Below, piece by piece: positions 21,832 through 52,983 of a stretch of 61,398 bases of DNA (positions are counted from its first letter, which is position 1; every line of letters starts with the position of its first letter). A model generated the notes under the pieces. The model was not told the DNA's origin. It searched no databases and saw only the letters and a list, made by a program, of their open reading frames with translations. The stretch is from an uncultured Anaerolineaceae bacterium (GTDB lineage: Bacteria; Chloroflexota; Anaerolineae; Anaerolineales; UBA4823). The position numbers and the translations under genes were made by a program. Location of the stretch: positions 1 through 61,398 of the forward strand of contig CAZGIX010000004.1 of assembly GCA_964525785.1 (NCBI GenBank), given 5' to 3'.

Positions 21832-21900
21832 GTTCAAGTACGTCGATACGTTGGGAGCGCCGGGCACGAATAAGCGAGGGAAGGGCGCTCGATAGGCTGG

Positions 21901-27292: not shown

Positions 27293-27375
27293 AACGCCCG
27301 GTTTTCATGAGGTATTTCATTAACATTAGGACTAATGCAGTTTGGGGAGGAAGTCTCTCCTGAACTGCGTAACTT

Positions 27376-28753: not shown

Positions 28754-29460
28754 GATTGTTCTTGATCTTCGGCTGGAGCTTGCGAGCCAGCAACCAATCT
28801 CTTCGTCCAGGCGATCACCTGGCTCAGGCTCAAGGCATCCGAATTCAGGATCACAGCATCAGCCGCCGGACGCAGTGGAGAGATCTCGCGGGTAGAGTCG
28901 ATTTGGTCTCGCATTTTCATTGCTTCTAATATGGAGCCATAGTCAGCTTGCTCGCCGCGGGCTATCACTTCTTTATATCGGCGGCGTGCCCTTTCCTCGA
29001 CGGATGCATCCAGGTAGATCTTTAAATCAGCTTCAGGCAGCACTACGGTGCCGATATCGCGGCCGACCATCACCACGCGGCCACGCAGTCCAATGCGACG
29101 CTGCTGGGAAGACAGGGCGCGCCGGACTCCCGGATAGGCGGATACCACCGAGACATTAGCATCCACCTCGGGACGGCGTATTTCCCACGTGATATCCTCT
29201 GTGCCAATCCAAACGTCATAACTGCGCCCATCCTTTTTGGATGGCGGGTGTACATCAATTGGAATGTCCTCAGCCAGGCGGGTTATCGCAACTCCATCTT
29301 CCATTGCCAACCCGCTCTGCAGCGCCAACCAGGTAACGGCCCGGTACATTATCCCGGTGTCGAAATAAAGGTACCCCAGGCTATCCGCCAGGGCCTTCGC
29401 TAGAGTAGATTTTCCAGACCCTGCCGGACCATCGATAGTAATAATATTTGGTTTCTGCAT
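28750..29460 (-). CDS. cmk: Cytidylate kinase
   Basis: IDGPAGSGKST, DTGIMYRA, VMVGRDIGTVVLP, KIYLDAS, RDQIDSTR. Confidence 0.97.
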   Translation of the reverse strand: MQKPNIITIDGPAGSGKSTLAKALADSLGYLYFDTGIMYRAVTWLALQSGLAMEDGVAITRLAEDIPIDVHPPSKKDGRSYDVWIGTEDITWEIRRPEVDANVSVVSAYPGVRRALSSQQRRIGLRGRVVMVGRDIGTVVLPEADLKIYLDASVEERARRRYKEVIARGEQADYGSILEAMKMRDQIDSTREISPLRPAADAVILNSDALSLSQVIAWTKRLVAGSQAPAEDQEQS

Positions 29461-29551: not shown

Positions 29552-31330
29552 TTACTGGGGCAGGTCTTCTCCCTGATCCACTTGCTCGATTGGAGGGGCG
29601 ATCTCGGTATTCTGCTCCAGAACAACTCCTGGGAACAAATCGGCCCTGGCCCATAAAATAATCTCATCCTGTGAAACTGGCACCTCATGGTAGGCAAGCC
29701 ATCTGGGCAGGCTGGCAGGCAGCGCGCCCAGCCAGATGGGGTTATACCACCAGGCGAAATCCTGGCCGCGGTAATTCGCCGCCAGGCTGGGATCCTGCTC
29801 GGATTTACGGGTGATCACCACCGGGACAGACTCCTGTCTTGAGAATTCCTGCCTTTCAGGGATAAAGCTGGCGTTAGGAAATGTGCGCAGCAGCCAGCGC
29901 AGCGAAGGAGCATCCACGGAAGCGACGATCTCGATTGTCTCTTTTCGACCGGTAGACCAGGTAGACAGACCATCCAACGTTTGCTGGAATAAGACCGCCT
30001 GTCCAGCTAAGGGGGCAGGGTCCCAGATCGCCGTCCGATTGGCTGCGGATTGGGAGGCCGCCCACATCCCTGCTGTCCCATACACACTGAGAGATAACAC
30101 CAATCCCCAGGTAAGGCCGCGGACGGCAGTATCCCACGACCATCCAAAACCCACCAGTCCGGTAGACAGAGCGATCATCACCAGGATACCAGCCATTACC
30201 AGCCAGCGCAGCAATCCGGCGCTTTCACTGGGTACGGGCTGGGTGAGTCCCGCTAGATTCAGCCAGAAAAGGGACAGTAAAACGATGACAACTGCAGCCT
30301 GGATAGCTGCTATGGCTCGCTGAGTTTTTTCAACCGGCAGGTAATCAGCCAACAGGATCGCTGCCAGCCCCCACAACGGCACCAGAACCCATACCAGGTC
30401 TGCCATCTGGCGGGCAGGATTGATTAGTACCAATACCAGGGCAGCGACGAGCCAGATGCTCAGCCATTGCGCCGGAGCGGCGTTTTTCTGCCAGCCGCGC
30501 ACCAGGCCGATCAGGCCAAAAATCAACGCCGCCGGTTGGTATACGAGCAAAACCAACAACATACGAGCTGCCGGCACTCCGGATACCGTCACCCATCCCT
30601 GGAGATAGGCAGGCAAAGCCCCAATCCAGGCACCGAGCCCCTGGGGGAAAATGCCGAACAAGCTGCCAGCCAGAAGGATGGTGCCGAGTGTAGATAAGCC
30701 CAGGGGTTTCAGGGTCTGGCGATCGACTACCTCCGTATCTGCTTCAGCAGCTCCCAGCCAGCCGGATCTCTGGAACAGGTGTACCAAAATCCAGACCAGC
30801 GCAAGAATAACAATCCCCTGTATTGCAGACGGACCGGAGAGCAAAGCCAACCCGAGAAAGATCCCCGCCGCGATCGTATAACCTCCGACCAGCAAGCCCA
30901 GGCCGAACAAGCCCAGGCCTACCGCAGTCATTGGACTGCCTGCCAGGCGGGAAAGAGCCACCAGACCAGGATCCAATGCCATCCCCGCAGCCATGATCAG
31001 CGCAGCTGGTCTTCCTATCTTATACCGGAAGTAGTACGGCACCAGGCAGAGAAGAATCCCGGCCAACAACGGCAGCAAGCGGGCCAGGGCATTGCTGCTG
31101 CCCAGGATAGAAAACAGCAGGCCGGTAAGTCCAATATATGCCGGTTGGGAGCCGGGAGCCTGGGGGTCGACGTTCGTACCGGCTGGGAAGAGGCTCAATG
31201 CCTGCAGCGCCCAGGTCGATTCGGAATCAGACAGCGGCCGGGCACCGATGCCCAGCAGGCGCACGCCCAGCGCCAGCACCAAAACCAGGGCCCATAATAT
31301 TTGCTCGATAGTGATTCGCGGTTGCCTCAT
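29552..31330 (-). CDS. Polytopic membrane protein with PMT-like N-terminus (TIGR03663/Agl23-like putative GT-C glycosyltransferase)
   Basis: TM1-R...acidic loop (VRLLGIGARPLSDSE), LARLLPLLAG, many TM helices, soluble C-terminal domain (LRWLLR, YRGQDF). Confidence 0.65.
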   Translation of the reverse strand: MRQPRITIEQILWALVLVLALGVRLLGIGARPLSDSESTWALQALSLFPAGTNVDPQAPGSQPAYIGLTGLLFSILGSSNALARLLPLLAGILLCLVPYYFRYKIGRPAALIMAAGMALDPGLVALSRLAGSPMTAVGLGLFGLGLLVGGYTIAAGIFLGLALLSGPSAIQGIVILALVWILVHLFQRSGWLGAAEADTEVVDRQTLKPLGLSTLGTILLAGSLFGIFPQGLGAWIGALPAYLQGWVTVSGVPAARMLLVLLVYQPAALIFGLIGLVRGWQKNAAPAQWLSIWLVAALVLVLINPARQMADLVWVLVPLWGLAAILLADYLPVEKTQRAIAAIQAAVVIVLLSLFWLNLAGLTQPVPSESAGLLRWLVMAGILVMIALSTGLVGFGWSWDTAVRGLTWGLVLSLSVYGTAGMWAASQSAANRTAIWDPAPLAGQAVLFQQTLDGLSTWSTGRKETIEIVASVDAPSLRWLLRTFPNASFIPERQEFSRQESVPVVITRKSEQDPSLAANYRGQDFAWWYNPIWLGALPASLPRWLAYHEVPVSQDEIILWARADLFPGVVLEQNTEIAPPIEQVDQGEDLPQ

Positions 31331-31396
31331 ACGATTATCAAACGATCAAGGACTGACGCAGTTGGTTAGTAACACCTACTATTATAACTATTGCGC

Positions 31397-34150
31397 TCAT
31401 GGGGCCTCGTAAATGGTCACATTCCCTTGTTGGAAAACGACCTGCAGAGACTGGTCAAATTTAGCCTGGTATAACCCTGTTCCACAGGTGTCGGGCGTGT
31501 ATGCAGACCTCTCTAATGAACCGACGAAAATATAGCGGATTCCGTACTGTTCGATTATGGCTTGCGCTTCATCCCATCTGCGAGAGCAGAACAACCTCTG
31601 GATATCCGCCTGGCGGGTGCTGAGCTCGGCACCTTCACGTCCCCATTGACTCTCGTGACCAGGCCAGCCGAGCACGTTGGGCTGCCCGCTCAATGTGGCC
31701 ACTCGGGCATAAATCGAGTAGCTCCCTCCCACAGCCTCGGCCACCACTCCCGCCGACGCGTCGGATAACCAGCGGATGGCTGCTATGTCATCCGGCGATT
31801 GCTGCTCCATATAGGCCGCACCGTCCAGGCTCCATCCTTGAGATGGAGAGAACCCTTCCGTCTTATTCCAGAAGCCAAGCACAGTATAAGTCAGACCGAG
31901 CCCAAGCAACACGACCAATCCTACACTGTAGGCAAAACCGGCCGCGCCGCGCAGCCCCCTCAGCAGCAGCGCTGACCCAAATGCCGCCACAACCGCCCAC
32001 ATCAGCCAGGCTTGATAGTAGAGCTTGAAGACGGTGTTCATGCGGCTGCCGAATTGATCCCGCAGGTAAAAGAACTCCAGACCTAACACCAGTACTCCAG
32101 CCAGCAGGACCAGCAGCAACGCAAAACCGTCTGCGTTACCGATGCGGATGGCCGACATGCCTGTATTGGCACGGCCCGAGCGCGGCTGGATCTCTCTATC
32201 CGGCCAGAGCAGGGCAACCGTAAACGAAAGCAGCAGCAGTAAGGTTATCCAGGCTCCCGGACTGGCCAGGCGGCGAGCAAAAGAAGCCTGAACCAGCTCT
32301 ACTGCACTGGAGGCTCCCATCAGATTCAGCAATAGATCCCCCACTCCTGGCAGCAGAGTGGCCAATACGCCGATCAGCGTGGAGAAGGCAAATAATAGCA
32401 GCGTCAATGAAACCGTCAATATCGCCCCTCGCCTGAGATTTAACCGGCTGTCGGACGTTGCCCAAAGATAACCTATATAGGCGATTATTGGCAGCAGTAG
32501 AATCCCAAACATCACCCATAGATGCATCCCGCGCGTTACAAAAACCAGGCTGGGAATGACCCCTCCCGCCTGAGAAGAAAAGCTCCAGAAGAAAGGCAGG
32601 TAAGCGATCACACCGGCGATTACCAACAGCACCGCCAGCATCAAGAACTCACGTACGATAGTAGGGAGTGCCAGCGGCTGTTCCTCGCTGATTTCGCCAG
32701 CAATTTCACTTGCAGCTGTTCCGTTTGAGCTGCAGCGCCATAGGACAAAGGCGGCTGCGAACAATGCCACGTAGACCGGAAAGTCCCAGGTGTTGAGAAA
32801 AGCCATTCCGCCTAAGACGACTATCGCCAGCAGCAGACCAGCCGAATCCATGTGAAGGACACAGCCCACCAGGCGCTCACCGGCATCACGGCGAGTTAAG
32901 ATACCCAATCCGTGCTGGCCAATAGCTCCCCGCAGGCCAGCCAGGGTAATCCCGCCGGCAAACAAGCTGACCGCTCCCAGCAAGCTGAAGCTCAGGTTCA
33001 GCGCGCCCAGTCCGCTCCACAGGAGGGCCAGGCCAAAAACAACCAAAACTAATCCCAGCCAGGCCAGGGTACGGTGGCCCACCCGGTGCTGGAACCAGGA
33101 GATCATCCCGGCGCTGCCCCCCAGAGCCAGATTTAATGCCAGTGTCATAGCTAAGAAGGTAAACGGCATCGCCAGCACGTGCGGGTGCAGATCTCCCAGC
33201 AGGTAGGAAAATGCCGGGAACTCGTCAATAATCTCCTTGAACTCACCCTTCAGATTGTAATCCGACAGCACGCGGGAAGCGCGCCACCACCACCAGAACT
33301 TACTTGGGATCCAGGAATATGGCCCCTCAGGCGGCAAGCTCAGGTCCTGGATATCCAGCCACTTCCAAAACGTGGATGTCAGGCTTCCGTCTGGTGCCGC
33401 CTTCCAGAACAGGCCGCGCGTATGCAGCACATGCAGAAAACCTTCCAGGTTCCCAACCAGGAGCACAAAGATTGGTCCCAATACGGGCAGTCCCAGGCTT
33501 GGGCGTTCTGCTCTGCCCTCCCGGCTGGAGCGTGCATGCAGTAAGTTATATACCAGGCCGTACACTGCTGCTGCGCTGAGGGCGAAGACCGACGATAGCC
33601 CCAGGTTGAATGCGATGCTGCCTGGGGTTCCAGCTAATCTGGCGAGCACCGCTACCAGGATGTACCCAAAGTAATAGTATGAGATCGCGTATCCGGACAT
33701 CCAGGGATCATGTGGCGGGAGGGTCGGAGAGCTGAGGATAGCATTGATAAATGCCAGTTCCATCGGCTTTTCGGTGCCCGTGATCTCAGGATTGGCAGCC
33801 CGCACGGCGACCATCCCAACATAAGAAACCAGGAACACCAGTTCGACCGCCAGGATCAAGCGTGAATGTGCTTTCAGCCAGGCTGCCAGCTCCTCCCGAT
33901 CGATCATCAAAATCGCCCAGGTGCTCAACGCCAGGATCAGGAGCAGTGCGAAGAGCAGCCCCCCGAGGTCATTATTCAGCACGCCAAGGGATGCCAGCAG
34001 CCAGAAAATATACCCCCATAGAAGCCACCCTAACACGCGGCAGATGGCATAGCCGCGATCTGCCAAAGCCGGCAGCAGGCGATATGCCAGGGGAAAAGTC
34101 AACCAGCCGAGTAAAGAGAGGATAAGGTACCAGAGAATTGGAGCAAGCAT
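31397..34150 (-). CDS. DUF2298 / Chlor_Arch_YYY membrane protein (putative GT-C glycosyltransferase)
   Basis: EKPMELAFINA, PPHDPWMSG, YYYFG, EFP..S..LGDLHPH, NTWDFP, NTVFKLYYQAW, C-terminal AIRWL...LGWPGHE...YIFVG domain. Confidence 0.85.
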   Translation of the reverse strand: MLAPILWYLILSLLGWLTFPLAYRLLPALADRGYAICRVLGWLLWGYIFWLLASLGVLNNDLGGLLFALLLILALSTWAILMIDREELAAWLKAHSRLILAVELVFLVSYVGMVAVRAANPEITGTEKPMELAFINAILSSPTLPPHDPWMSGYAISYYYFGYILVAVLARLAGTPGSIAFNLGLSSVFALSAAAVYGLVYNLLHARSSREGRAERPSLGLPVLGPIFVLLVGNLEGFLHVLHTRGLFWKAAPDGSLTSTFWKWLDIQDLSLPPEGPYSWIPSKFWWWWRASRVLSDYNLKGEFKEIIDEFPAFSYLLGDLHPHVLAMPFTFLAMTLALNLALGGSAGMISWFQHRVGHRTLAWLGLVLVVFGLALLWSGLGALNLSFSLLGAVSLFAGGITLAGLRGAIGQHGLGILTRRDAGERLVGCVLHMDSAGLLLAIVVLGGMAFLNTWDFPVYVALFAAAFVLWRCSSNGTAASEIAGEISEEQPLALPTIVREFLMLAVLLVIAGVIAYLPFFWSFSSQAGGVIPSLVFVTRGMHLWVMFGILLLPIIAYIGYLWATSDSRLNLRRGAILTVSLTLLLFAFSTLIGVLATLLPGVGDLLLNLMGASSAVELVQASFARRLASPGAWITLLLLLSFTVALLWPDREIQPRSGRANTGMSAIRIGNADGFALLLVLLAGVLVLGLEFFYLRDQFGSRMNTVFKLYYQAWLMWAVVAAFGSALLLRGLRGAAGFAYSVGLVVLLGLGLTYTVLGFWNKTEGFSPSQGWSLDGAAYMEQQSPDDIAAIRWLSDASAGVVAEAVGGSYSIYARVATLSGQPNVLGWPGHESQWGREGAELSTRQADIQRLFCSRRWDEAQAIIEQYGIRYIFVGSLERSAYTPDTCGTGLYQAKFDQSLQVVFQQGNVTIYEAP

Positions 34151-34166
34151 GGCTGTCTCGGATTAC

Positions 34167-37100
34167 CTACTGCTCGGGTACTTCGTAAATGACCGTATCG
34201 CCATCTCGATAGACCTCGCGCCACAAATCGCCATTAGCCATTTGGAATTTCTCCAATCCCAGGCTGGAGGTATAACCGCGCTCGGTGAGCAGGCGCGGCA
34301 GAGTGTAATACCCACGCTCTTGCTGACCAAGGATGATGTAACGGACATTATATTTCTTTAAGAAGTTAATCACCTGCTGCAAATCGGTCGTCAGATAGAA
34401 ATTATCGATCTCAGCAATTCTGTCGCTGACCCAATTGCCAGGCAAGATGGCGCGCTGCTGCTGCTGGTGCCATTCCCAGCCCACCACGCCAGGGAGTCCG
34501 GTGTAAATTGAATAACGTGATCCCCAGCGATACAGGTTGCGCAGGTTGGCCTCGACGATGACCGGCGAGCCAACCACGTTTTCCTGCATCCAGCGGATGG
34601 CGCGATAATCCTGGCTCAGATCCATGCGGCCCCATTCATCGTCATAGCTGGCATACTGCATGTAAGCCATGCCATCTAGTGTATGGGGAGTGCGCGGGTC
34701 CATGCGATCCTCGATCTTCGCCAGCGTGGCCAGCATCGGGAAAAGCGCTGCAGCTGCCACCAATCCCGCCAGGAGCACTTGCCAGGCGGCGCGCCCGCGC
34801 GGGTACCATGCCGGCAGCGCTATGATCACCCAGCCCAATGCCGCTGCGGCGCTGATGGAGAAGAACGTCCATATCTGCAAATAAAACTTGAAGACCGTAT
34901 TCATCCGTCCGATATCGCCCCGCAGGACGATCGCCTCGACCATAAGGGTCAAAACCAGGCCGGTGCCCACCAGGAACAGCACCGCACGTTTGGCATCCGG
35001 CAGGCGCGGGCGCAGCAGAAGCACTCCAGCCCAGGCTGCCAATGGCAAGATAAACCAGGCGATCGAGACCTTGATCAGCACCAGCACCGCCACCAGAGCC
35101 AACAGCAGGACGATAGCCAGCTGGATCCAGATCTTATACTGCTCCAGCTTCTTCAAGGCGGAGAGCGGTGTGGCAGCCAGCCACTCGCGCGTCTCCCACA
35201 CCATCCAGGTGACGATCACAAATAGAAACACGCCCCAGTGAACCAGGTAGCTACCCAGGGGTGTATGCGTGCCCTTCCACAGGTCGATCTTGTTGTAACC
35301 CAGGGCATACCAGTTCGAATATGGCTGGTAAAGCAGCATGGAGAGGGCAACCAGGACCAGGATAGCCCCCCCAGCCGCCACCAGCCGCTGGCTGGAATCG
35401 GGCAGGCTGTAAAAAATCCCAAGGAGAGAAGACCGGCTGCCTTTCTTAGGCTGGTAGTACTTCCATACCGTGTACAGCAGGGCGACGCAGCCCAGTGCGA
35501 GGTAGGTATAGAAATCCCAGGTATTGGTGGGACGCAGTGCTCCAATCGCCAACCCACCCAGGACGAAACCAAAGACCGTCCCCAGAATGCCCTGCCAGCG
35601 GGCACGCCCCAGGATGACGCTGACAGCGAAGGCCAGCACAAGCAAGGTGATTGGCAGCGCCACCAGATGGGCATGCAGATCGCCATATAGGACGGTGAAG
35701 AAGGGGAACTCGGTAATCGGCTCAACATCCCCTGGGGCAGGGATTGCCCGGCTCGGGATCCAGTACCAGTCTCCCAAGCTGTAGGGAAGACCTGCGCTGC
35801 CAAAGGATCTGAAAAATCCCTGGAATGCCCACATCCAGCGCGTCAAAACACCAGCCTCTCCAACCATCCCTCCTGGCGCGACCAGGCGCTGGTAGCCCTG
35901 GAAGATCATGCGCAGCGTGCCCAGATTGCCCAGGAGAGCCGTACCCACGGCTCCTGCCAGCCCCACCCAATACGGCCTGGACCTGGAGGACAGGAACCGG
36001 CCAGAAGCAGGATAGTCGCTTTCTGAACCCGCCCGCGCGGCAGCCAGGTTCCAGGCTAACGAGAACGCTCCCATAGCGATGAGTGCAAACACGGTGGGGA
36101 TGATCAGATTATAGGCAATCGATGGCACGATCCCGAGCAGCTCAACAAGAACACCCATCAAGACGAAGCCATAATAATAATAGTTCAGATAACCGCCGGC
36201 GTACCACGGATCGTAGGGCGGGAAAGAGGTGCTCTTGATCACGGCGTTGAAGTATGAGAAATCCATTGGCCTCTCGCCGCCCTTCCAGGGGTGCCACAGA
36301 TCCGGATTGCCGAAGCGGATCAGCAGGTCCAGGAGGAAAAAGCCCAGGAACAAAGCCTCGACGGCAAGGATATATTTCCAACGCTGACCAAGCTCACGCC
36401 GTAGATCGCCTCGCTGCCGGTAAGCCAGGGTAAGGCTAACCAGCACCATAACTAATAAAAGGATGCTGATAGTAATACGGTTGACCGGGATGCGCACCGA
36501 GCCAGCCAGCCAGGCCAGATACGAAAGCAGCAGCAGTCCGAAGACGCGCGCCAGCGGGTAGCCGCGATCGTTCAACCCGGGCAGCGCCAGACGGATCATC
36601 GGATAAACGATCAGACCCAGCAGCCCAACACTCAGGTACCAGAACAGGACAGCCAGGATTTGGGAGCTGTTCTGTGCTGCGCTGGTATCGAAAATCTCCG
36701 ACCATGTACCGCCCGACTGCTGCTCCGCCCAACGCACCGCAGGCAGCAGCAGGTTGGCGGGATTGGATCCGGCTTTCTTGGGCGTAACATGCACAACCTG
36801 CGTCAGATCCACCGTACCCAGGATTTGGCTCACCTGCTCGGAATCGTGTGCCTCGGTTTTCTTGAAAATCAGCACCTTGGGATGGTCGTAGACAGTGAAA
36901 GCTTCCTCCGCCGACTGGTCGTTGATGCTCAACGCGCCGATCGAAGGATCCGACTGGAAGACTTTGACCAGCTCGAAGCCCAGGCTGCCCTGGAACATGC
37001 CGGGTCGTGCAGCCACATAGCACGAGATGATGCTCCGCTCCGGCGGGCAGCCCAGCAGCTCTCGGTAGTAAACAGTTGTCAGCGGGAAGCGTTCGGGAAG

Positions 37101-39281: not shown

Positions 39282-39321
39282 TGTCCAGGTTGCGCCAATT
39301 AACCGAGCTTACCCGTCGCTT

Positions 39322-41496
39322 TCATTGCTGCGGTGGGACAAAATACATATAAAAGTTGTGGTTCTCTACCGCAGAGAAATACTCTTGCAGCACTCCCTGT
39401 GGGTAGAGGCTTTGCAGGGCCAGCAAGCCCTGGGTATCTTCCGGCTTCACCAGGAAGAGTTTGGCGCGTAAATCAGCAGCAGTCTCCTGAAGCTGGTCGG
39501 GCCAGATAGCATAATCTTTCAGCGGATATCCGGCGTTAATACCGACCAGACGGGTATCTACCCAATGTGGAAACGCCACCACCCAGGCGGTATCTGGCGT
39601 ACCGACCGACCCGGTGAACTGTCGAATGACTTTACCCATCTCAGAGGTATTCCAGGATGATTGCCGGTACACGCGCTGGTATTCGTTGAAGACCAGGCGG
39701 TAGTTTTGTACACTTGCCAGGATTACCAGGATGGCAGCCATTCCCCAGGCGAGGTATGATCCCGCGGGCTGGCTCAGGCGAGATTCGGCTGCTGACATCA
39801 GTCCATCCAGGCAGAGAGCCGCGATCAAAAACACAGGCACGATGGCTCCTGCCATACGGTTGAGCGACGGATTTTCGCCGGGAAACGCCAGGGAAAGGAT
39901 CGAGGGCATCAAGAGCATTGGTACGCTGAGCAGCAGAAACAGATCCAACCAATTGCGCTTACGCAGGTAGCGCACGAGCAGCAGCCCACATCCCAGGTAG
40001 AACAATGCCGCCGATATGACATCCAGAGCCGGGCGGTGGGTCACCGAGGTGACCCAGATTTCGCCGTCATCCCAGGCGAACATCGTCAGTGCCTTCCACA
40101 GGTTTTCCAGGAAGATTGTGCCGGCGGGTCCTGGCAAAGGCTGCTCCGTAGTCCCCAGGCGCGAGAAAGCGCGAAAAGAGAACATCCCAGGATTCTCCAG
40201 GGCATACCGCATGAGGGGTAGAAACACCAGCAGCGCCGCCAGCGCCAGCACCCCCAGACACCAGATGGTCTGCTTCCTCAGCCCCAGGCTCTGCCGGTGG
40301 ATCAGATATAAACCAACTCCCACCAGGACAACAACCGGCAAGATTCGGATCGGGGTATAGCCGTGCAGGCCAATCCCCAGAAACAGGCCTGACAATATAA
40401 AATCATTGCGGTTGGAGGTGCGAATACCTCGAATTAGATAATACAAAGTAGGTGCTACGAACAGCGTGTACAGCGGGAAGCGCAGCCCCACCCTCGAGAT
40501 CACATTGGGCCAGTAAGCGATACCAGCCAGAAGCACTGCAAACAAACCGATGCGCCGGCTGCCCAGCTCCTTTCCCAGGGAGTACATAAACGGCAGCGCT
40601 AGCAGGCCTGCCAGGATTGTGCCGATTTTCAGGCTCAAAAACGAGTAGCCAGTGTTTAAAACCTGCACAATTGCTGCCGTCAGGTACATCTGCAAGGCTT
40701 CTCGCCCGGTATTGCGCGGGAAAAAGATGCGCGTCTCACCATGGACGACATCCCAGACATCCAACAGCTTCTCAGCCTGGTCGCTGACCATCTCAGGCGG
40801 CACCTGTTCTAACTGGTATACACGAAAGAAGATAGCCACTGCAGCCACCGCCAGCACCAGAACCGTCCAGCGGGTGATCGTCAATCGCCACTCTCTCTTT
40901 GTAAGCAGTTTGCGCAGCTTATGGAAGATCGACGATCCCCGCTCGCCAGGCAGCCATAATGCGTAGACGATGGCAGCCACAGCCAGAATCCACAGGAGGA
41001 CATTCAGGGAAGTAAACTTGTTGCCGCCCATGCTGACGAAGGCCAGCAGCACCAGCGGGATCCCGGCAAACAATCCATAGCGCCTTACCGTCATAGGCTC
41101 CCCGCGTGGCTCAGCCTCGGGCAAGGAAGCCGGGAGCCATTCGTCTCGCCAGGTGGCGACAAAAAGAAAGGCAAAAGCCAGCAGGTAGAGAAAAACGCCC
41201 GGCAGCCAGGCACGCTGATCGGTCGGTTCCAGCGAGACATGTGCTAGGAGCGCCAGCCCCATCGAGAGCAGCGACAGCCAGGGCAGTACCCTGGCGTCTG
41301 CCTTTATCTTGGGCTCAATCCGGACTTGCTCAATGGATGAGCCAGCTGTAATTTGCTCTGCAGAAGGGGAAATGGTCGCATTTGGCTCGACCGTCAACTC
41401 AACATCAGCAAGTATATGCTCAGCTTGAGGCAGTGAGCTTCGCCAGGGCATTAACCTGGCCTTGAGATAATCCAGGAGACTCGGTTCTTCCATCAC
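39322..41496 (-). CDS. GT39/PMT-like (ArnT-like) membrane glycosyltransferase
   Basis: IFFRVYQLEQVPPEMVSDQAE loop, FPRNTGRE, many TM helices, PNxNR-like PSLNR motif. GTG start overlaps the upstream stop. Confidence 0.75.
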   Translation of the reverse strand: MMEEPSLLDYLKARLMPWRSSLPQAEHILADVELTVEPNATISPSAEQITAGSSIEQVRIEPKIKADARVLPWLSLLSMGLALLAHVSLEPTDQRAWLPGVFLYLLAFAFLFVATWRDEWLPASLPEAEPRGEPMTVRRYGLFAGIPLVLLAFVSMGGNKFTSLNVLLWILAVAAIVYALWLPGERGSSIFHKLRKLLTKREWRLTITRWTVLVLAVAAVAIFFRVYQLEQVPPEMVSDQAEKLLDVWDVVHGETRIFFPRNTGREALQMYLTAAIVQVLNTGYSFLSLKIGTILAGLLALPFMYSLGKELGSRRIGLFAVLLAGIAYWPNVISRVGLRFPLYTLFVAPTLYYLIRGIRTSNRNDFILSGLFLGIGLHGYTPIRILPVVVLVGVGLYLIHRQSLGLRKQTIWCLGVLALAALLVFLPLMRYALENPGMFSFRAFSRLGTTEQPLPGPAGTIFLENLWKALTMFAWDDGEIWVTSVTHRPALDVISAALFYLGCGLLLVRYLRKRNWLDLFLLLSVPMLLMPSILSLAFPGENPSLNRMAGAIVPVFLIAALCLDGLMSAAESRLSQPAGSYLAWGMAAILVILASVQNYRLVFNEYQRVYRQSSWNTSEMGKVIRQFTGSVGTPDTAWVVAFPHWVDTRLVGINAGYPLKDYAIWPDQLQETAADLRAKLFLVKPEDTQGLLALQSLYPQGVLQEYFSAVENHNFYMYFVPPQQ

Positions 41497-42215
41497 GGTT
41501 TTTTGGCCAGGACAATCAGGCTCTCACCCATTCGAAGGGGTATGATACTCCATCCCATGACTGCCTGCAAGCCCCCCGGCGCGCCGAAGACCAGCTTTTG
41601 GAGTTTGGCTGGCAGCCAGGTCAGGTAGGGTGCATCCCAAAAACCGTCCGAGAAAACGCGCCTGATTTGTAATCCCTGCTGGCGGATGCAGCCGAGCCAA
41701 TCAGAAGGTGTCTTCAAGCTGATATGCGTAGGATCTTTGTAGCCCACCCAGTTCTCTTTCTTACGTTTACGCATCGGCGAATCAAGATTAGGAGTAGCCA
41801 GCAGCAGCACCCCACCCGGTGCAAGAACCCGGCCCATTTCAGATATGGCTTTTTCCGGATGCGGCAGATGCTCGACCACGTGCTTGGCGATCACAATTTG
41901 AAAGCTCTCAGACAGGAAGGCGCTTAAATCCTCAGCCGAGAGCATAGCAAAGTTGCCGCCCGGTACATTCTGGCGCGCTTGGGAGAGCGCCCAGGCGTTG
42001 ATATCAGAACCGTAGACCTGGTAGCGGTCCGCCAGCCAGGTCAGCAGATGCCCCAACCCACAGCCGATTTCCAGCACACGCCCTTGAGGTGGGCCGTAGC
42101 GGCGGGCAAGCCTGGCGTAATAGCGATTCGACCACCAGTACTGGCTGTATTTCCGGAAAGAGACATCCGCATAGGCGGCGGTCTTGAAATAGCTTTCGTC
42201 AAATGGGTGGCTCAT
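41493..42215 (-). CDS. Class I SAM-dependent methyltransferase
   Basis: VLEIGCGLG motif I, GSDIN, HVVEHL, VLAPGG..LLATPN. Confidence 0.9.
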   Translation of the reverse strand: MSHPFDESYFKTAAYADVSFRKYSQYWWSNRYYARLARRYGPPQGRVLEIGCGLGHLLTWLADRYQVYGSDINAWALSQARQNVPGGNFAMLSAEDLSAFLSESFQIVIAKHVVEHLPHPEKAISEMGRVLAPGGVLLLATPNLDSPMRKRKKENWVGYKDPTHISLKTPSDWLGCIRQQGLQIRRVFSDGFWDAPYLTWLPAKLQKLVFGAPGGLQAVMGWSIIPLRMGESLIVLAKKP

Positions 42216-42997
42216 GGCTTACGGGCGATATAAAAGGTAAAAACCCCTTGTGGATCTGGAACTGCCTGGCTGTAAGGGCGTACCAGGCGGTCCGTAAGCG
42301 CCAGGTTCCAGCGCACTGGAGCGATGATCCAACGCCGGAACAGAGCATGGGGAAGCAAGGTCGGCGCGCCGAAATAATGGCCCCACTCCAGCACGCGCAT
42401 GGCCTGGGGGGAAAAATAGTGCCACCATTCATCGAGCACGAAACCTGTCCGCTCCAGCCAGGTTTGCCAGGTCTGTGGTGGCTCGGCATGCTGGACGCGC
42501 GACATGCGGCGGAACCAATCCGTGTAGGCCTCGCCCAATCCGAGCAAGCCGAGGGATTTCAGGTGCGCAGGGATCGATAACTGGCTGAGATAACCGGGAT
42601 TAGGCACGCAGAAGATGAAGGGCGCCTCAGACTTCAGCACGCGGGCGGTCTCTGCCAGGACAGCTTCGACATGGGGAATATGCTCCAGGACAGAATTGCT
42701 GATGGCGCTGGCAAAGTAGCCATCCGGAAATGGCAAACGACCACCATCCGCCTGCACCAGGGAGCGATAGCCACCTAGCCGAGCAGCCTGGCGGATCGGC
42801 CCGCCCCACGGATCGATACCTACCTCCAGCGGGCGGTCGAATGCCACGCTGGCGAAGTGCCCATCCCCACAGCCGACATCCAGCGTCGGGGCGGGCAGCT
42901 CGAGGTCCTGGTAGAAGGACGCCTCCACAGCTCGCAGCATGGCGCGGAAATAAGGCAGGTCGCGCAGGTGAAGCCAGAGGAAGTCTTTAGAGGTCAT
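42212..42997 (-). CDS. Class I SAM-dependent methyltransferase
   Basis: LDVGCGDG motif I, GIDP, LPFPDGYF, SNSVLEHIP, CVPN. Confidence 0.9.
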   Translation of the reverse strand: MTSKDFLWLHLRDLPYFRAMLRAVEASFYQDLELPAPTLDVGCGDGHFASVAFDRPLEVGIDPWGGPIRQAARLGGYRSLVQADGGRLPFPDGYFASAISNSVLEHIPHVEAVLAETARVLKSEAPFIFCVPNPGYLSQLSIPAHLKSLGLLGLGEAYTDWFRRMSRVQHAEPPQTWQTWLERTGFVLDEWWHYFSPQAMRVLEWGHYFGAPTLLPHALFRRWIIAPVRWNLALTDRLVRPYSQAVPDPQGVFTFYIARKP

Positions 42998-44144
42998 TAG
43001 TTAAGAGCGTTGTATACAGATTCTCGTATTCCCCAGCCACCGTATCTGAGGAGAACTGCCGGGAAATCCCTGCTGGGTCGCCTCGATAATCCTCGGGCCG
43101 TTCCAGGACTTTGAGAACTGCTTTGGAGAGCATACCCGCATCTGCCGGGGGGATAATCTCGCCCATACCCGTCATCAGCACCGGTTGCCGTACGCCGGGC
43201 AAGTCGGTGGCTACCACTGGAGTGCCGCAGCTCATGGCTTCTACCTGCACCATCCCGAAGGATTCCGTGCTGTTCAGGCTGGGCAGTACAAGTACATCGC
43301 AACTAGAAAGGAAAGCAGTGAAATCGCCATTAGATAATATGCCTAAAAATCGCCAATGGTCGCCCAGGCGTTCAATCAAGGGAGCCAGCCTCTGAGCATA
43401 TGCCTGCTCTCCAAAAACATTCTGGTATTGACCGACAAAAAGGACGCGCGCCTGCGGGTAATGCTCCAGGATAGTGGGTAGTGCCTGTACCAAATACTCG
43501 ACACCCTTTTCTGTGGCCAAACGCGCCGCCATGCCGATTACTGGCTGGCCCACCTGGATGCCCGCCATTCCCCGGAATGCTTCCATTTCAGCCTGCACCA
43601 CGGGTAAGATTTCGACCGGCGGTAAAACATAGCGAAGCTTGGGAAGGTAGGGCTTTAGAAAAGTTGAGTGCTCAGCATAATCGCGGGTGTTTGTGACGAT
43701 CACCCTGGCGGCTGCAGCTGAGATCCGGTTGGCGATATGCGAAACCTGGTTGGCCACCGCGTGGATAAGACCCTGTGGAAGGCGCAGGTCACAGTGGTAG
43801 GTCAGCACTACCGGCTTGCCAAGCCAGCGACCAATCACCGCGATCCCGGCGGCATCCAGCTGAGGGACGTGCAGGTTGATTATATCCGCCTGGCTTGCTA
43901 GCTTCCACGCCCAGACCGGCATGTGCGGCATGATCACCCCTTTGCTGACATGCATCAGCACTGGCATGCGCAGGATCTGGACCCCGTCGCGCTGCTCTCG
44001 CAGGGGCAGATCACGATTGTAGTGAGAAGTTAATATGCTCACCGCATGGCCGCGCCTCGCCAGGGCGCGTGCCAGCCGGTCGGCGTAGATCGTAAGACCG
44101 GAGTAGTGGGGCCGGTAATACGTCAATGCCATCAGAATTCGCAT
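42987..44144 (-). CDS. GT4 (GT-B) glycosyltransferase
   Basis: YYRP..SG N-terminus, RLATEKG, LPS..STESFGMVQVEAM (EX7E). Confidence 0.93.
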   Translation of the reverse strand: MRILMALTYYRPHYSGLTIYADRLARALARRGHAVSILTSHYNRDLPLREQRDGVQILRMPVLMHVSKGVIMPHMPVWAWKLASQADIINLHVPQLDAAGIAVIGRWLGKPVVLTYHCDLRLPQGLIHAVANQVSHIANRISAAAARVIVTNTRDYAEHSTFLKPYLPKLRYVLPPVEILPVVQAEMEAFRGMAGIQVGQPVIGMAARLATEKGVEYLVQALPTILEHYPQARVLFVGQYQNVFGEQAYAQRLAPLIERLGDHWRFLGILSNGDFTAFLSSCDVLVLPSLNSTESFGMVQVEAMSCGTPVVATDLPGVRQPVLMTGMGEIIPPADAGMLSKAVLKVLERPEDYRGDPAGISRQFSSDTVAGEYENLYTTLLTNDL

Positions 44145-44153
44145 TGGATGGAC

Positions 44154-45245
44154 TTACCCCTGCCGCTCGGATTGCAGGCCGCGCACGCGCCGGTACAAGC
44201 CGGCCAGCGATTCCCCGTCCCTGACCAGTGCATATATCCCCAACACACCGGTGACGATGTACTGTAAGAGGTGTGCCGTGATAGCGGCTGCCAGCGCGAC
44301 AGAGGTATCCACGCCAAAGAGCGCCTGCGATCCGACCATGGCGGCTTCGAAGACTCCGACTGCCCCAGGGGAAGAGGGAGCAGCAATCCCCAGCGCAGTC
44401 ACAGCCAGGCTGAAGCTCGACCAGAGCAGCCTGGTGCTGGGGATAAAAGCCAATAGAAGGAAATAAAATTGGAAGATAGCAATTAACCAATCCAGCATGA
44501 CCCAAAACATTGCACGCAGAAACCGTTTGCCATCGGTGAGGATCGAGAGCCCATCGAAGAAGGCCGGTACAGCTCTGCCTAGTAAACGGCGTACTATCGG
44601 CAGCCGGTCCGCGACCCGGTTGAAAATCCCCAACGCCCAGGCGCGGTTCCGTGCCAGCAGGTACATACCCAGGAATGCCAATAGGATGATCACGGCAATG
44701 GAGGCGGCAATTGGAAGCTGGTTGCCGGCGCCTACCACAAATGGCAGTGTGCAAAACAGCAATCCTACAGCCAGAGTCAAGTCCATGATTCTCTCGATGA
44801 TGATGGTGGTCAGCACCTCCCAGAATCCTACGGGAGCCTTACGGCTGAGAAGAAATGCCCGGGCGACCTCCCCCAATCGAAAGGGAAGCAGGTTATTGAT
44901 CAGATAGCCTTCGTTCAGCGTCCAGAATACCGCCGGGTAAGCAGCTTTCTCCTGCAGGAGGGTCCGCCAGAACATCCCGCGCACCATCAGCCAGACGAGC
45001 ATGAAGCCCATTGCCAGGAACACCAGCCGCAGGTCCGCCAACAGCAAGGCCTGTCGGAGCTTTTCCAGATCGGCAAAATAAAAGACGACGATCAGGGAGA
45101 CCAGGCTGACGAGTACACCAGGCAGTATCCGGCGCCACTCGACCCGGCCGCGCCTGTCGTTATCCAGAGGGTTCTGGGCAGGAGCATTAATATTATTCTT
45201 CTCCGTATCGCAACACTGCCAGGAACGCTTCCTGCGGAATCTCAA
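44154..45245 (-). CDS. UPF0104 / LPG_synthase_TM family putative lipid flippase (start uncertain)
   Basis: [44 protein letters not shown]. Confidence 0.85.
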
Positions 45246-52556: not shown

Positions 52557-52563
52557 AAAGAGT

Positions 52564-52983
52564 TTATTCCCCCATTACCTGCACCACCAGTTCCCTGCGC
52601 CTGGGACGGTTATCAAAATCCACATAGATCACCTGCTGCCACGTTCCCAGGGTAAGGTCGCAGTTGACGAACGGAACGCTGAGCGAGGCGCCCAAAAGTG
52701 CCGCGCGTACGTGGCTGTGACCGTTGCCATCCCCCCAGCGGGCATTATGGGAGTAATGTTTTTCCGGCGGAATAATTTCATCGAACAGGCGCTTTAGATC
52801 GCCCAAGGCGCCTGACTCATACTCAATGGTCGTAAGCCCGCTGGTGGATGACGGACAGAAGACGGTAACTACCCCACTTTTCAAGCCGGATTGGCGGACA
52901 CAACGGGCGACATCGTCTGTAATATCGACCATATCCGCACCGCCGCGGGTGCTCAATTGCAGGGCATGCGTGACAACAGCCAT
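52564..52983 (-). CDS. yjbQ: YjbQ (UPF0047) family protein
   Basis: NGHSHVRAALLG, LGTWQQVIYVDFD...R. Start ATG 52983 with AGGAGG. Confidence 0.9.
   Translation of the reverse strand: MAVVTHALQLSTRGGADMVDITDDVARCVRQSGLKSGVVTVFCPSSTSGLTTIEYESGALGDLKRLFDEIIPPEKHYSHNARWGDGNGHSHVRAALLGASLSVPFVNCDLTLGTWQQVIYVDFDNRPRRRELVVQVMGE

What the first reader, a model, noticed from the sequence alone, without database searches (positions are those of the whole stretch)
29552..45245. Top candidate system: lipid-carrier-dependent surface glycosylation cluster resembling archaeal agl loci
Seen: eight co-directional, mostly overlapping genes in this order: UPF0104 flippase, GT4, two SAM methyltransferases, GT39-like protein, GT39-DUF2298 fusion, DUF2298 protein, TIGR03663-like protein. 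That is five predicted GT-C modules. Known: GT-C enzymes use polyprenyl-phosphate sugars outside the membrane; the Chlor_Arch_YYY and TIGR03663 families co-occur in Archaea and Chloroflexi with function largely unknown; Haloferax agl clusters combine GTs, a methyltransferase and flippases. Inference: a cytoplasmic GT4 plus methylation builds a methylated lipid-linked sugar, which is flipped and polymerised or transferred by the GT-Cs onto a protein, S-layer, sheath or lipid acceptor. The order even follows that logic. The acceptor and sugars are unknown.
Basis: partly seen in the sequence, partly recalled or inferred. Interest (0 to 1): 0.8.

Follow-up and report, generated by a model that had tools for sequence, protein, structure and literature searches.

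The report
Anaerolineae membrane glycosyltransferase gene cluster
Eight co-directional genes of an uncultured Anaerolineae (Chloroflexota) bacterium encode a flippase-like protein, a sugar transferase, two methyltransferases and four large membrane proteins with five lipid-sugar-dependent glycosyltransferase-type modules; the set is conserved across the class beside cell-wall growth genes and probably builds an unidentified surface glycan, but nothing about it has been tested experimentally.

Summary
Three GT-C modules are firm. g5 and the N-terminus of g6 hit Pfam PMT_2/PMT. The g8 AlphaFold model matches ArnT, STT3, ALG9 and AglB. The two DUF2298 (TIGR03662) modules are probable GT-Cs. A good g7 model has one significant PDB neighbour, the C-mannosyltransferase DPY19, and its C-terminal domain resembles the AglB globular domain.

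The four GT-C genes stay adjacent in 80 Anaerolineae genomes, even where the flanks change. Elsewhere PMT-like and two DUF2298 modules are fused into one protein. GT4, methyltransferases and the flippase-like gene are usual but dispensable neighbours. The block lies between lepA and cmk-plsC-HK-mreBCD-pbp2-rodA.

No STT3/AglB orthologue and no polyprenyl-phosphate GT2 are present, and g8 fails the Agl23 (TIGR03663) cutoff. It therefore works like an agl or mycobacterial-type lipid-carrier pathway but is a member of neither.

Acceptor, sugars and donor are unknown. No function is published for DUF2298.

Verdict: a real, uncharacterised variant of extracytoplasmic GT-C glycosylation, of moderate to good interest.

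The parts
44154..45245 (-). g1: stand-alone UPF0104/MprF-flippase-domain-like membrane protein (363 aa, about 8 TM helices). It has no aminoacyl-PG synthase domain.
   Evidence: PF03706 at 1.9e-42 and TIGR00374 at 85 bits against a cutoff of 43. The TTG start overlaps lepA by 53 nt. It lies upstream of g2 in 17/25 relatives with enough sequence, and the gene on its other side is lepA in some and tlyA in others.
42987..44144 (-). g2: cytoplasmic GT4 (GT-B) glycosyltransferase, 385 aa.
   Evidence: Glycos_transf_1 at 5e-31 and Glyco_trans_4_4 at 1.7e-17. No NCBIfam equivalog reaches its cutoff. The nearest solved proteins are sucrose-phosphate synthase Tll1590, PimA and PimB', matching the C-terminal domain only. 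Present in 45/53 relatives.
42212..42997 (-). g3: class I SAM-dependent methyltransferase, 261 aa.
   Evidence: Methyltransf_11 at 2.3e-15. Present in 40/55 relatives. It shares 31% identity with g4 over 98 aa.
41493..42215 (-). g4: second class I SAM-dependent methyltransferase, 240 aa. It is an accessory gene.
   Evidence: Methyltransf_23 at 5e-25. The nearest PDB entry is the phosphatidylethanolamine N-methyltransferase 8ys9 at 2e-9, a generic match. Present in only 18/55 relatives.
39322..41496 (-). g5: PMT_2-type GT-C membrane protein, 724 aa. It has four extra N-terminal TM helices before the GT-C core. The first-loop motif is S238-D239-x-A-E242-K243.
   Evidence: PMT_2 at 2.6e-9, 37.9 bits against a cutoff of 26.1. 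112 residues are at least 90% conserved in 51 orthologues, including the acidic first-loop motif. Adjacent to g6 in 54/58 relatives.
37776..39281 (-). g6 N-module (residues 1-502): PMT/PMT_2-type GT-C with the first-loop motif H47-P48-D49-E50.
   Evidence: PMT_2 hits 26/26 orthologues (best 6e-14) and PMT hits 14/26 (best 2e-10). H47, P48 and D49 are invariant. There is also a weak partial hit to archaeo_STT3 TIGR04154 at 4.8e-4.
36660..37775 (-). g6 middle domain (residues 503-874): a conserved acidic soluble domain of unknown fold, probably extracytoplasmic.
   Evidence: No Pfam or PDB hit, either as a single sequence or as a profile. Many residues are invariant, including the C745/C754 pair. 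The stretch has no TM segment.
34167..36659 (-). g6 C-module (residues 875-1704): DUF2298 / Chlor_Arch_YYY module plus a C-terminal soluble domain of about 180 aa.
   Evidence: TIGR03662 at 503 bits against a cutoff of 300, and PF10060 at 2.5e-117. It is about 31% identical to g7. 86 positions are at least 90% conserved in both paralogue lineages.
31397..34150 (-). g7: stand-alone DUF2298 / Chlor_Arch_YYY protein, 917 aa, with about 17-20 helices and a C-terminal alpha/beta domain.
   Evidence: TIGR03662 at 457 bits. The AF2 model has pLDDT 83 and pTM 0.88. The Foldseek top hit is DPY19 7zlh (E 3.3e-4, prob 1.0, TM 0.29/0.38). The C-terminal domain matches the AglB-S2 globular domain 3vu0 (prob 1.0, TMt 0.54). 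Invariant motifs are GTEKPME 125-131, D148, YYY 158-160, WWWRASRV 287-294 and DxHPH 320-324.
29552..31330 (-). g8: orphan GT-C-fold protein, 592 aa, ArnT-like, with about 13 TM helices and a C-terminal beta-rich domain.
   Evidence: The AF2 model has pLDDT 88. Foldseek gives ArnT 5f15 at E 1.8e-8, TM 0.56/0.61, and all 17 hits below 1e-3 are GT-C enzymes. E37, R24, R84, D120 and R128 are invariant. TIGR03663 scores only 49.6 bits against 126. Adjacent to g7 in at least 64/71 relatives. The L049 copy missed by tblastn is recovered by hhalign at prob 99.5.
26528..29460 (-). Syntenic neighbours whose membership is uncertain: cmk (29460-28750) and three PlsC-family acyltransferase paralogues (28753-26528).
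   Evidence: Pfam Cytidylate_kin at 4e-68 and Acyltransferase three times. cmk follows the cluster in 60/64 relatives and a plsC in 51/62. Both are absent next to the GT-C core in L050 and L057.

Best explanation
This is a conserved Anaerolineae operon for lipid-carrier-dependent glycosylation of an envelope component on the outer face of the cytoplasmic membrane.

The core machine is four polytopic proteins carrying five GT-C-type modules:
- g5, PMT_2-like;
- g6, a PMT-like module, a soluble domain and a DUF2298 module in one chain;
- g7, DUF2298;
- g8, ArnT-fold.

These modules take sugars from polyprenyl-phosphate carriers. They add them, each module with its own linkage or step, to a growing glycan. 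The PMT-like and DUF2298 modules probably work as one physical complex.

In most Anaerolineae an inner-face feeder is attached. The GT4 g2 glycosylates a membrane-bound lipid or lipid-linked primer. One or two SAM methyltransferases modify it. The MprF-type flippase-like g1 moves a lipid-linked species across the membrane.

The enzyme that charges the polyprenyl phosphate is encoded elsewhere.

My ranking of the acceptor:
- a wall-associated glycopolymer or lipoglycan of the poorly understood outer layers of the Chloroflexota envelope, about 0.4;
- surface proteins, about 0.35;
- a membrane lipid head group, about 0.1.

Shown here: gene content, folds and families, co-conservation, and domain fusions. 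Inferred: every catalytic activity, the donor, the acceptor and the role of each module.
For: Family and fold:
- PMT_2/PMT hits are above the curated cutoffs for g5 and g6N.
- The g8 model matches only GT-C enzymes. ArnT gives TM 0.56-0.61, followed by STT3, ALG9, AglB and ALG12.
- The only significant neighbour of the g7 model is the GT-C enzyme DPY19, and its C-terminal domain resembles the AglB globular domain.
- Every module keeps a conserved acidic motif in the loop after a TM helix, plus conserved Arg/Lys/His. These are g5 SDxAEK, g6N HPDE, g8 PLSDxE and DUF2298 GTEKPME with DxHPH.
- Both DUF2298 paralogues keep the same 86 positions, so neither is degenerate.

Coupling of the genes:
- Adjacency to g7 is 63/66 for g6C, 57/61 for g6N, 54/58 for g5 and at least 64/71 for g8, across 80 genomes.
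- The four GT-C genes stay together in L050 and L057, where the flanks are different genes.
- They also stay together in L049, where g6 lacks the PMT module and no methyltransferase is present.
- A 2434-aa protein elsewhere fuses PMT/PMT_2 with two DUF2298 modules.

Flippase-like gene:
- g1 stays with g2 whether lepA or tlyA is upstream.
- UPF0104 proteins are homologues of the MprF flippase domain. In Archaea they are linked to PMT/STT3-like proteins (PMC5898192).

Envelope context:
- mreBCD-pbp2-minCD-rodA lies downstream in the window.
- An RpfB-like cell-wall gene is adjacent in L050 and L057.
- GC content matches the flanks, so this is a vertical core trait.
Against: - No activity has been tested for any DUF2298 protein, and I found no functional literature.
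- The DUF2298-GT-C link rests on one Foldseek hit with low global TM (0.29/0.38). There is no sequence or profile support. hhalign also failed on the positive control, g8 against g6N, so that test has no power.
- No polyprenyl-phosphate GT2 or priming transferase is in the window.
- The flanking housekeeping genes are just as syntenic as g1-g4. Synteny alone therefore cannot tie the feeder genes to the core.
- The only tested TIGR03663 protein (Agl23), to which g8 shows only a sub-cutoff match, behaves as a flippase rather than a transferase (PMC11182771).
- TPR and NHL-propeller fusions in relatives, and the protein-modifying nature of PMT, DPY19 and AglB, pull towards a protein acceptor rather than my first choice.
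Confidence: 0.6

Rival explanations
1. Protein glycosylation system. The PMT-like modules O-glycosylate Ser/Thr of secreted or surface proteins from polyprenyl-P-sugars. The DUF2298 modules act as STT3/DPY19-like transferases that recognise peptide. g2, g3, g4 and g1 build, methylate and flip a short lipid-linked glycan, as in archaeal agl or Campylobacter pgl pathways.
For: - g6N hits PMT and carries the DE motif.
- The best structural neighbours of g7 are DPY19 and the AglB C-terminal domain.
- Relatives fuse PMT_2 to an NHL propeller, and DUF2298 pairs to TPR repeats, as in TMTC-type protein mannosyltransferases (the TMTC comparison is from my own knowledge).
- pgl and agl pathways use GT4 enzymes, a methyltransferase and a flippase (established knowledge).
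- From my memory of the TIGR03662 description, the family is shared with Archaea, whose envelopes are glycoprotein based.
Against: - No STT3 family hit and no WWDYG-type motif were found in the C-terminal domain.
- PMT MIR domains are absent.
- No candidate acceptor protein lies in the cluster.
- Five modules are more than known O-mannosylation systems need.
- TPR and propeller domains also bind polysaccharides.
Confidence: 0.35
2. Membrane-lipid head-group modification, for surface charge or stress adaptation. This would be an ArnT/MprF-like system in which a lipid is glycosylated or otherwise modified, flipped by g1 and decorated outside. The adjacent histidine kinase would regulate it and the plsC paralogues would feed it.
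For: - The best match of g8 is ArnT bound to undecaprenyl phosphate.
- g1 belongs to the MprF flippase-domain family.
- The nearest solved relative of g4 is a phospholipid N-methyltransferase.
- cmk, three PlsC paralogues and a large sensor kinase follow in most genomes.
Against: - Five GT-C modules, two of them about 900 aa with large soluble domains, are far more than a head-group modification needs.
- The cluster is a universal core trait rather than a conditional resistance module.
- cmk, plsC and HK are absent beside the GT-C core in L050 and L057.
- The methyltransferase match is generic.
Confidence: 0.1
3. Not one system. The eight genes are an inherited arrangement of independent envelope genes. 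Only g6 and g7, perhaps with g5 and g8, work together. g1-g4 serve other pathways. Some 'GT-C' modules (g8, DUF2298) are lipid-linked-sugar flippases or scaffolds rather than transferases.
For: - Flanking housekeeping genes (lepA, tlyA, cmk, plsC, HK) are equally syntenic.
- g4 is present in 18/55 relatives, g3 in 40/55 and g1 in 17/25. All of g1-g4 are missing next to the core in L050 and L057.
- Agl23 of the TIGR03663 family flips lipid-linked oligosaccharide in vitro (PMC11182771).
Against: - g1-g2 travel with the core whether lepA or tlyA is upstream.
- The 4-nt and 11-nt overlaps from g2 to g5 suggest translational coupling.
- All modules keep GT-C-style acidic loop motifs.
Confidence: 0.2

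Closest known systems
Archaeal UPF0104 (arCOG00899) / PMT-STT3-like (arCOG00563) / AglD neighbourhood, and haloarchaeal agl pathways (AglD, AglP, AglR, AglS, AglB; Agl22/Agl23)
   Same: - A MprF-flippase-domain homologue sits next to a PMT-like GT-C protein (PMC5898192).
- Cytoplasmic glycosyltransferases and a SAM methyltransferase are present.
- The logic of outer-face transfer from a polyprenyl-type phosphate-sugar is the same.
- g8 has a distant, sub-cutoff match to the TIGR03663 family that contains Agl23.
   Different: - There is no AglB/STT3.
- There is no AglD/Agl22-type GT2 that charges the lipid carrier.
- The flippase is not Wzx/AglR-like.
- g8 fails the Agl23 family cutoff.
- The host is a bacterium, where the carrier is presumably undecaprenyl-type rather than dolichol.
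- There are five GT-C modules instead of one or two.
Mycobacterial PIM/LM/LAM and arabinogalactan assembly (PimA/PimB' GT4; PimE, MptA-C, Emb and Aft GT-C enzymes)
   Same: - Cytoplasmic GT4 steps act on a membrane lipid.
- A flipping step follows, then several different GT-C enzymes extend one glycan outside from polyprenyl-P-sugars.
- Both are core envelope traits of a monoderm-type lineage.
- PimA and PimB' are among the nearest solved relatives of g2.
   Different: - None of the GT-C families match by sequence (no GT87, GT53 or GT85 hits).
- The similarity of g2 to PimA is limited to the generic nucleotide-sugar-binding domain.
- The adjacent acyltransferases are PlsC-type, not PatA-type.
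- No lipoglycan has been described in Anaerolineae.
ArnT (GT83), undecaprenyl-phosphate-Ara4N:lipid A transferase
   Same: It is the best structural match of g8 (TM 0.56-0.61). Both have an acidic first-loop motif and conserved Arg residues.
   Different: Identity is only 14-16% and there is no sequence-level hit. Chloroflexota make no lipid A, and no ArnC or ArnEF partners are present.
DPY19 (GT98) C-mannosyltransferase and STT3/AglB oligosaccharyltransferases
   Same: DPY19 is the only significant structural neighbour of the DUF2298 model. The DUF2298 C-terminal alpha/beta domain resembles the AglB C-terminal globular domain.
   Different: - Identity is about 10% and the global TM-score is low.
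- DUF2298 has more helices (about 17-20 against 13).
- Its conserved motifs are different: GTEKPME, YYY, WWWRASRV and DxHPH.
- No STT3 or Dpy19 Pfam hit appears even at E 10.
TIGR03662 (Chlor_Arch_YYY) with TIGR03663 co-occurrence, as recorded by the TIGRFAMs/NCBIfam curators
   Same: g6C and g7 are clear TIGR03662 members. A PMT-like partner gene lies next to them. Two-copy and TPR-fused forms exist.
   Different: The partner g8 is below the TIGR03663 cutoff and forms its own family without a Pfam model. The curators' record describes co-occurrence only and gives no function.

Membership tests
Pfam PMT_2 / PMT (GT-C clan; GT39/GT83-like) | A hit above the curated gathering score | tested here: met
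   g5 scores 37.9 bits against 26.1. g6N scores 34.8 on PMT_2 and 23.3-30.6 on PMT against 22.7. PMT_2 is found in 26/26 g6N orthologues.
Pfam PMT_2 / PMT (GT-C clan; GT39/GT83-like) | A conserved Asp/Glu motif in the first extracytoplasmic loop | tested here: met
   In g6N, H47-P48-D49 are invariant and E50 is at least 90% conserved. In g5, D239 and E242 are at least 90% conserved in 51 orthologues. The topology is inferred from hydropathy only.
Canonical protein O-mannosyltransferase (GT39 PMT) | A luminal MIR domain between TM helices, and full-length PMT plus PMT_4TMC architecture | tested here: not met
   Neither g5 nor g6 has a MIR or PMT_4TMC hit. The PMT match covers only about 70 residues.
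TIGR03662 Chlor_Arch_YYY / Pfam DUF2298 | A score above the curated cutoff, and the YYYxG motif | tested here: met
   g6C scores 503 bits and g7 457 bits against 300. Y158-Y159-Y160-x-G162 is conserved in both paralogue lineages.
GT-C fold (structural superfamily) | The predicted structure superposes on solved GT-C enzymes | tested here: met
   For g8, the model has pLDDT 88. All 17 PDB hits below 1e-3 are GT-C enzymes, with ArnT at TM 0.56/0.61.
GT-C fold (structural superfamily) | The predicted structure of DUF2298 superposes on solved GT-C enzymes | tested here: inconclusive
   For g7, the model has pLDDT 83 and pTM 0.88. The single significant hit is DPY19 (E 3.3e-4, prob 1.0) with TM only 0.29/0.38. 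The next hits are noise. There is no sequence or profile link, but the hhalign control also failed.
TIGR03663 / Agl23 (flippase activity-associated protein) | A score above the curated cutoff of 126.25 bits | tested here: not met
   g8 scores 49.6 bits. Its orthologues mostly carry no Pfam domain.
Archaeal/bacterial N-glycosylation cluster (agl/pgl type) | An STT3/AglB/PglB oligosaccharyltransferase gene | tested here: not met
   No STT3 Pfam hit was found. TIGR04154 scores 18.6 bits against 450, on g6N only.
Archaeal/bacterial N-glycosylation cluster (agl/pgl type) | A priming phosphoglycosyltransferase or a polyprenyl-phosphate GT2 in the cluster | tested here: not met
   No PF00535, PF00953 or PF02397-type protein is among the ORFs of at least 150 aa scanned across the window. 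One may exist elsewhere in the genome, which is not available.
MprF | The PF03706 membrane domain plus a C-terminal aminoacyl-PG synthase domain (DUF2156) | tested here: not met
   g1 has PF03706 only and is 363 aa long. It is a UPF0104 stand-alone protein, not MprF.
Mycobacterial PIM/LM/LAM pathway | PimA/PimB' equivalogs and GT87/GT53-type GT-C enzymes | tested here: not met
   g2 matches PimA only over the C-terminal domain (2.7e-17) and reaches no equivalog cutoff. No GT87 or Arabinose_trans hits were found.
Any of the above | Demonstrated transferase or flippase activity, and identified donor and acceptor | not testable with these tools
   This needs biochemistry or genetics.

The most novel reading that the evidence does not exclude
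DUF2298/Chlor_Arch_YYY is a previously unrecognised GT-C family with an STT3/AglB-like C-terminal domain. Together with its PMT-like partners, which are fused to it in g6 and in the 2434-aa protein found elsewhere, it forms a multi-module outer-face glycan assembly machine. That machine would build the chemically undefined outer layer(s) of Chloroflexota envelopes. A homologous machine in Archaea might be served by Agl23-type proteins.
Probability: 0.25. Interest if true: 0.8.

Novelty: new variant of a known kind. Interest (0 to 1): 0.55.

Why it matters
The chemistry and biogenesis of the Chloroflexota envelope are unresolved. The phylum lacks the LPS and BAM pathways. Even so, electron microscopy and cryo-tomography show extra, sometimes diderm-like, layers that are proposed to be polysaccharide or protein (PMC13319060, introduction).

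This cluster offers concrete candidate genes for that question. It is conserved class-wide, encodes five GT-C-type modules and sits beside the elongasome genes.

It would also give a first function to DUF2298. That family has about 8,700 representatives at 50% clustering and no experimental literature.

It could also clarify the relation between bacterial and archaeal outer-face glycosylation.

If the product is instead an ordinary wall polysaccharide made by routine GT-C chemistry, the gain is limited to annotation.

Tried and rejected
- Sequence (phmmer) searches of g5, g6, g7 and g8 and profile (hmmsearch) searches of the g6N, g7 and g8 alignments against PDB found nothing relevant.
- hhalign between the module profiles found nothing. 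This includes the positive control of g8 against g6N, so the method has no power here and its negatives are discarded.
- A Pfam scan of 36 DUF2298 proteins at E up to 10, looking for recurrent weak GT-C hits, found none.
- Pfam scans of the soluble domains (g6 middle, g6 tail, g5 tail, g8 tail) found nothing.
- The promoter and terminator scan gave no intergenic sites, so operon boundaries remain undefined.
- Rfam and tRNA scans found no regulatory RNA near the cluster.
- A horizontally acquired island is rejected. GC is 0.556-0.587, like the flanks. The positive AT skew over 30-46 kb is what T-rich membrane-protein codons on the minus strand would give (my inference).
- A defence-system reading from the 'GT4-conflict' Pfam hit of g2 is rejected. 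It is a 46-residue match inside the ordinary GT4 domain.
- Membership in agl clusters, MprF, Agl23 and canonical PMT was tested and not met (see the membership test).
- Archaeal neighbourhoods of TIGR03662/TIGR03663 could not be examined. The single genome-collection scan returned only the 80 best loci. All are Anaerolineae-type, and two carry probably mis-binned labels. Protein searches list only the closest relatives.
- The Agl22/Agl23 paper (doi 10.1111/mmi.14577) is not held in the library.
- The third homologue search and the third fold search were left unused because no query promised decisive information.

Full report
**Observation**

The window carries eight co-directional minus-strand ORFs from 45245 to 29552.
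- g1 is a stand-alone UPF0104/LPG_synthase_TM protein (PF03706 at 1.9e-42; TIGR00374).
- g2 is a GT4.
- g3 and g4 are class I SAM methyltransferases.
- g5 is PMT_2.
- g6 (1704 aa) has PMT_2/PMT at its N-terminus and DUF2298/TIGR03662 at residues 874-1670.
- g7 (917 aa) is DUF2298/TIGR03662.
- g8 (592 aa) has only a sub-threshold TIGR03663 match (49.6 bits against 126).

Three junctions overlap, by 11, 4 and 4 nt. The other gaps are 9-66 nt. The TTG start of g1 overlaps lepA by 53 nt, and no alternative start follows.

**Context**

- Upstream lie tlyA and lepA.
- Downstream lie cmk, three PlsC-family paralogues and a 1097-aa sensor kinase. These are followed by mreB, mreC, a small ORF in the mreD position, PBP2, minC, minD and rodA.
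- All of these are on the same strand.
- No intergenic promoter-like or terminator-like site separates them.
- GC content equals that of the flanks. The positive AT skew over 30-46 kb is what T-rich membrane-protein codons on the minus strand would give (my inference).
- No polyprenyl-phosphate GT2 and no priming phosphoglycosyltransferase are found among the ORFs of at least 150 aa scanned across the 61 kb.

**Are the five modules GT-C?**

- g5 and g6N pass the curated PMT_2/PMT cutoffs. PMT_2 is found in 26/26 g6N orthologues.
- Both have conserved acidic motifs after a TM helix: HPDE in g6N and SDxAEK in g5.
- g5 has four additional N-terminal helices.
- g8 has no Pfam family. A confident AlphaFold model (pLDDT 88) matches ArnT (E 1.8e-8, TM 0.56/0.61), followed by STT3, ALG9, AglB and ALG12. 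All 17 hits below 1e-3 are GT-C enzymes. g8 is therefore a GT-C-fold protein.
- Its invariant residues E37, R24, R84, D120 and R128 fit an active site that handles a phosphate-sugar. This reading of the residues is inference.
- For DUF2298, the g7 model is good (pLDDT 83, pTM 0.88).
- Its only significant PDB neighbour is the GT-C C-mannosyltransferase DPY19 (E 3.3e-4, prob 1.0), but the global TM is low (0.29/0.38).
- Its C-terminal alpha/beta domain resembles the C-terminal globular domain of an archaeal oligosaccharyltransferase (3vu0, prob 1.0, TMt 0.54).
- No sequence or profile method links DUF2298 to other GT-C families. The same hhalign test also fails between g8 and g6N, which are both GT-C, so these negatives mean little.
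- I rate DUF2298 as probably GT-C, at about 0.75.
- g6C and g7 are paralogues of about 31% identity. They share 86 positions that are at least 90% conserved in both lineages, including E127, D148, R293, E310, D320, H322 and H324. Both therefore look functional.
- Between the two g6 modules lies a conserved 372-residue acidic soluble domain with an invariant Cys pair. It has no detectable relatives in Pfam or PDB.

**Co-conservation**

- g7 has thousands of relatives. The closest are from Anaerolineales.
- A profile search of 1.84 billion representatives finds 8,717 DUF2298 proteins at E below 1e-3.
- A scan of one genome per species returned 80 loci. Nearly all are Anaerolineae, including the cultured Ornatilinea apprima.
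- I ran tblastn with the window proteins against these loci. Each count is out of the loci that hold enough sequence on that side of g7:

| Gene next to g7 | Found |
|---|---|
| g6C | 63/66 |
| g6N | 57/61 |
| g5 | 54/58 |
| g8 | at least 64/71 |
| cmk | 60/64 |
| a plsC | 51/62 |
| g2 | 45/53 |
| g3 | 40/55 |
| g4 | 18/55 |
| g1 | 17/25 |

- g1 is flanked by lepA in some genomes and by tlyA in others.
- In L049, g6 lacks the PMT module and there are no methyltransferases. The 588-aa gene in the g8 position was missed by tblastn. It is a g8 family member by hhalign (prob 99.5).
- In the divergent loci L050 and L057 the flanks are different. An RpfB-like DUF348-G5-3D gene lies upstream, and there is no cmk, GT4 or methyltransferase.
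- Even so, the order g6-like fusion, DUF2298, a 580-aa PMT_2 protein and a PMT_2-NHL-propeller protein persists.
- Elsewhere a 2434-aa protein fuses PMT/PMT_2 with two DUF2298 modules. A 2713-aa protein carries two DUF2298 modules and C-terminal TPR repeats.
- The four GT-C genes are therefore a functional unit. g1-g4 are frequent but dispensable companions. Synteny alone cannot separate cmk and plsC from inherited adjacency.

**Literature**

- Only two held papers mention DUF2298, and neither addresses function.
- UPF0104 proteins were identified as homologues of the MprF flippase domain. In Archaea they are linked to PMT/STT3-like proteins and AglD (PMC5898192).
- Agl23 of the TIGR03663 family is a putative Dol-P-hexose flippase of Haloarcula hispanica. 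It also flips Man5GlcNAc2-PP-Dol in proteoliposomes (PMC11182771).
- The composition of the extra envelope layers of Chloroflexota is still open (PMC13319060).

**Mechanism**

The best-supported reading is an outer-face, polyprenyl-phosphate-sugar-dependent glycan assembly system. Its core is g5-g8. The PMT-like and DUF2298 modules act together, as the fusion evidence indicates. In most Anaerolineae an inner-face feeder accompanies the core: the GT4, one or two methyltransferases and a flippase-like protein. All catalytic steps, the donor and the acceptor are inferred.

I rank the acceptors as follows:
- a wall-associated glycopolymer or lipoglycan, about 0.4;
- surface proteins, about 0.35;
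- a lipid head group, about 0.1.

For a glycopolymer or lipoglycan:
- the many modules, as in mycobacterial LM/LAM and arabinogalactan synthesis;
- the GT4 plus flippase logic;
- the cell-wall gene neighbours.

For a protein acceptor:
- the PMT, DPY19 and AglB resemblances;
- the TPR and NHL fusions.

**Comparison and membership**

The cluster works like archaeal agl pathways and like mycobacterial GT-C assembly lines, but it is a member of neither:
- no STT3/AglB;
- no carrier-charging GT2;
- g8 is below the Agl23 cutoff;
- g1 is not MprF;
- g2 is not a PimA equivalog;
- no MIR domains.

It is a clear member of TIGR03662/DUF2298 and of PMT_2.

**Verdict**

The cluster is real, vertically inherited and functionally coupled, and it is uncharacterised. 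It is a new variant of a known kind of system rather than a new principle. Interest is moderate to good. It assigns a testable role to a large DUF family and offers candidate genes for an open question about Chloroflexota envelopes.

Noticed in passing
window 15349-22968 (-): A complete rod-shape and division block lies directly downstream of the cluster's neighbours on the same strand. It comprises mreB, mreC, a 170-aa ORF without a Pfam hit in the mreD position, PBP2, minC, minD and rodA, followed by gltX.
   Followed up: partly
window 26528-28753 (-): Three tandem PlsC-family acyltransferase paralogues, 30-36% identical to each other, follow cmk. One to three copies occupy the same place in most Anaerolineae relatives. 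Their lipid substrates are unknown.
   Followed up: partly
window 23176-26469 (-): A 1097-aa sensor histidine kinase has an N-terminal multi-TM region (weak ECF_trnsprt match) and dCache, HAMP, GAF and PAS domains. It is syntenic with the cluster in 36/57 relatives, and no response regulator lies next to it.
   Followed up: no
L038 and L082: Contigs labelled Methanosarcinales archaeon and Syntrophothermus sp. carry Anaerolineae-type synteny. L038 has tlyA-g1-g2-g3-g5-g6-g7-g8, and the short L082 has only g6C-g7. Both are probably mis-binned. They should not be read as archaeal or Firmicutes occurrences.
   Followed up: no
L050 1963-17574; L057 3893-19217: In divergent Anaerolineae the GT-C core is preceded by an RpfB-like DUF348-G5-3D cell-wall protein. 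It is followed by a PMT_2 protein fused to an NHL beta-propeller.
   Followed up: partly
P0348 (2434 aa), P0375 (2713 aa): Giant relatives exist. One fuses PMT/PMT_2 with two DUF2298 modules. Another has two DUF2298 modules and C-terminal TPR repeats.
   Followed up: partly
L001 14567-17008 versus L002 14567-16683: Two assemblies carry an identical g7 orthologue but differ right after g8. The complete genome CP070639 has a 66-aa cmk fragment followed by two GT4/GT1 genes. The other assembly has intact cmk-plsC. This is either strain variation or an assembly error.
   Followed up: no
window 51678-55226 (+): A NAGPA-type phosphodiester glycosidase (292 aa) lies at 51678-52556. A 659-aa protein with a C-terminal Exo_endo_phos/PGAP2IP-like domain lies at 53247-55226, with a small minus-strand UPF0047 gene between them. 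A 493-aa WD40 protein lies upstream at 50193-51674. A link to surface glycans is possible but was not examined.
   Followed up: no
window 56122-58644 (+): An 840-aa protein fuses an alpha/beta hydrolase with an AMP-binding (acyl-adenylate-forming) enzyme. A second alpha/beta hydrolase follows it.
   Followed up: no
window 1784-3394 (-) versus 1790-3664 (+): A 536-aa minus-strand ORF without any family hit lies entirely antisense to the FtsH gene. It is almost certainly spurious.
   Followed up: no
window 11064-13020 and 13844-15340: Both a GlnRS-type gene (11305-13020, +) and a GluRS-type gene (13844-15340, -) are present. tRNA-Gln(CTG) at 11064-11137 is the only RNA gene found in the window.
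   Followed up: no
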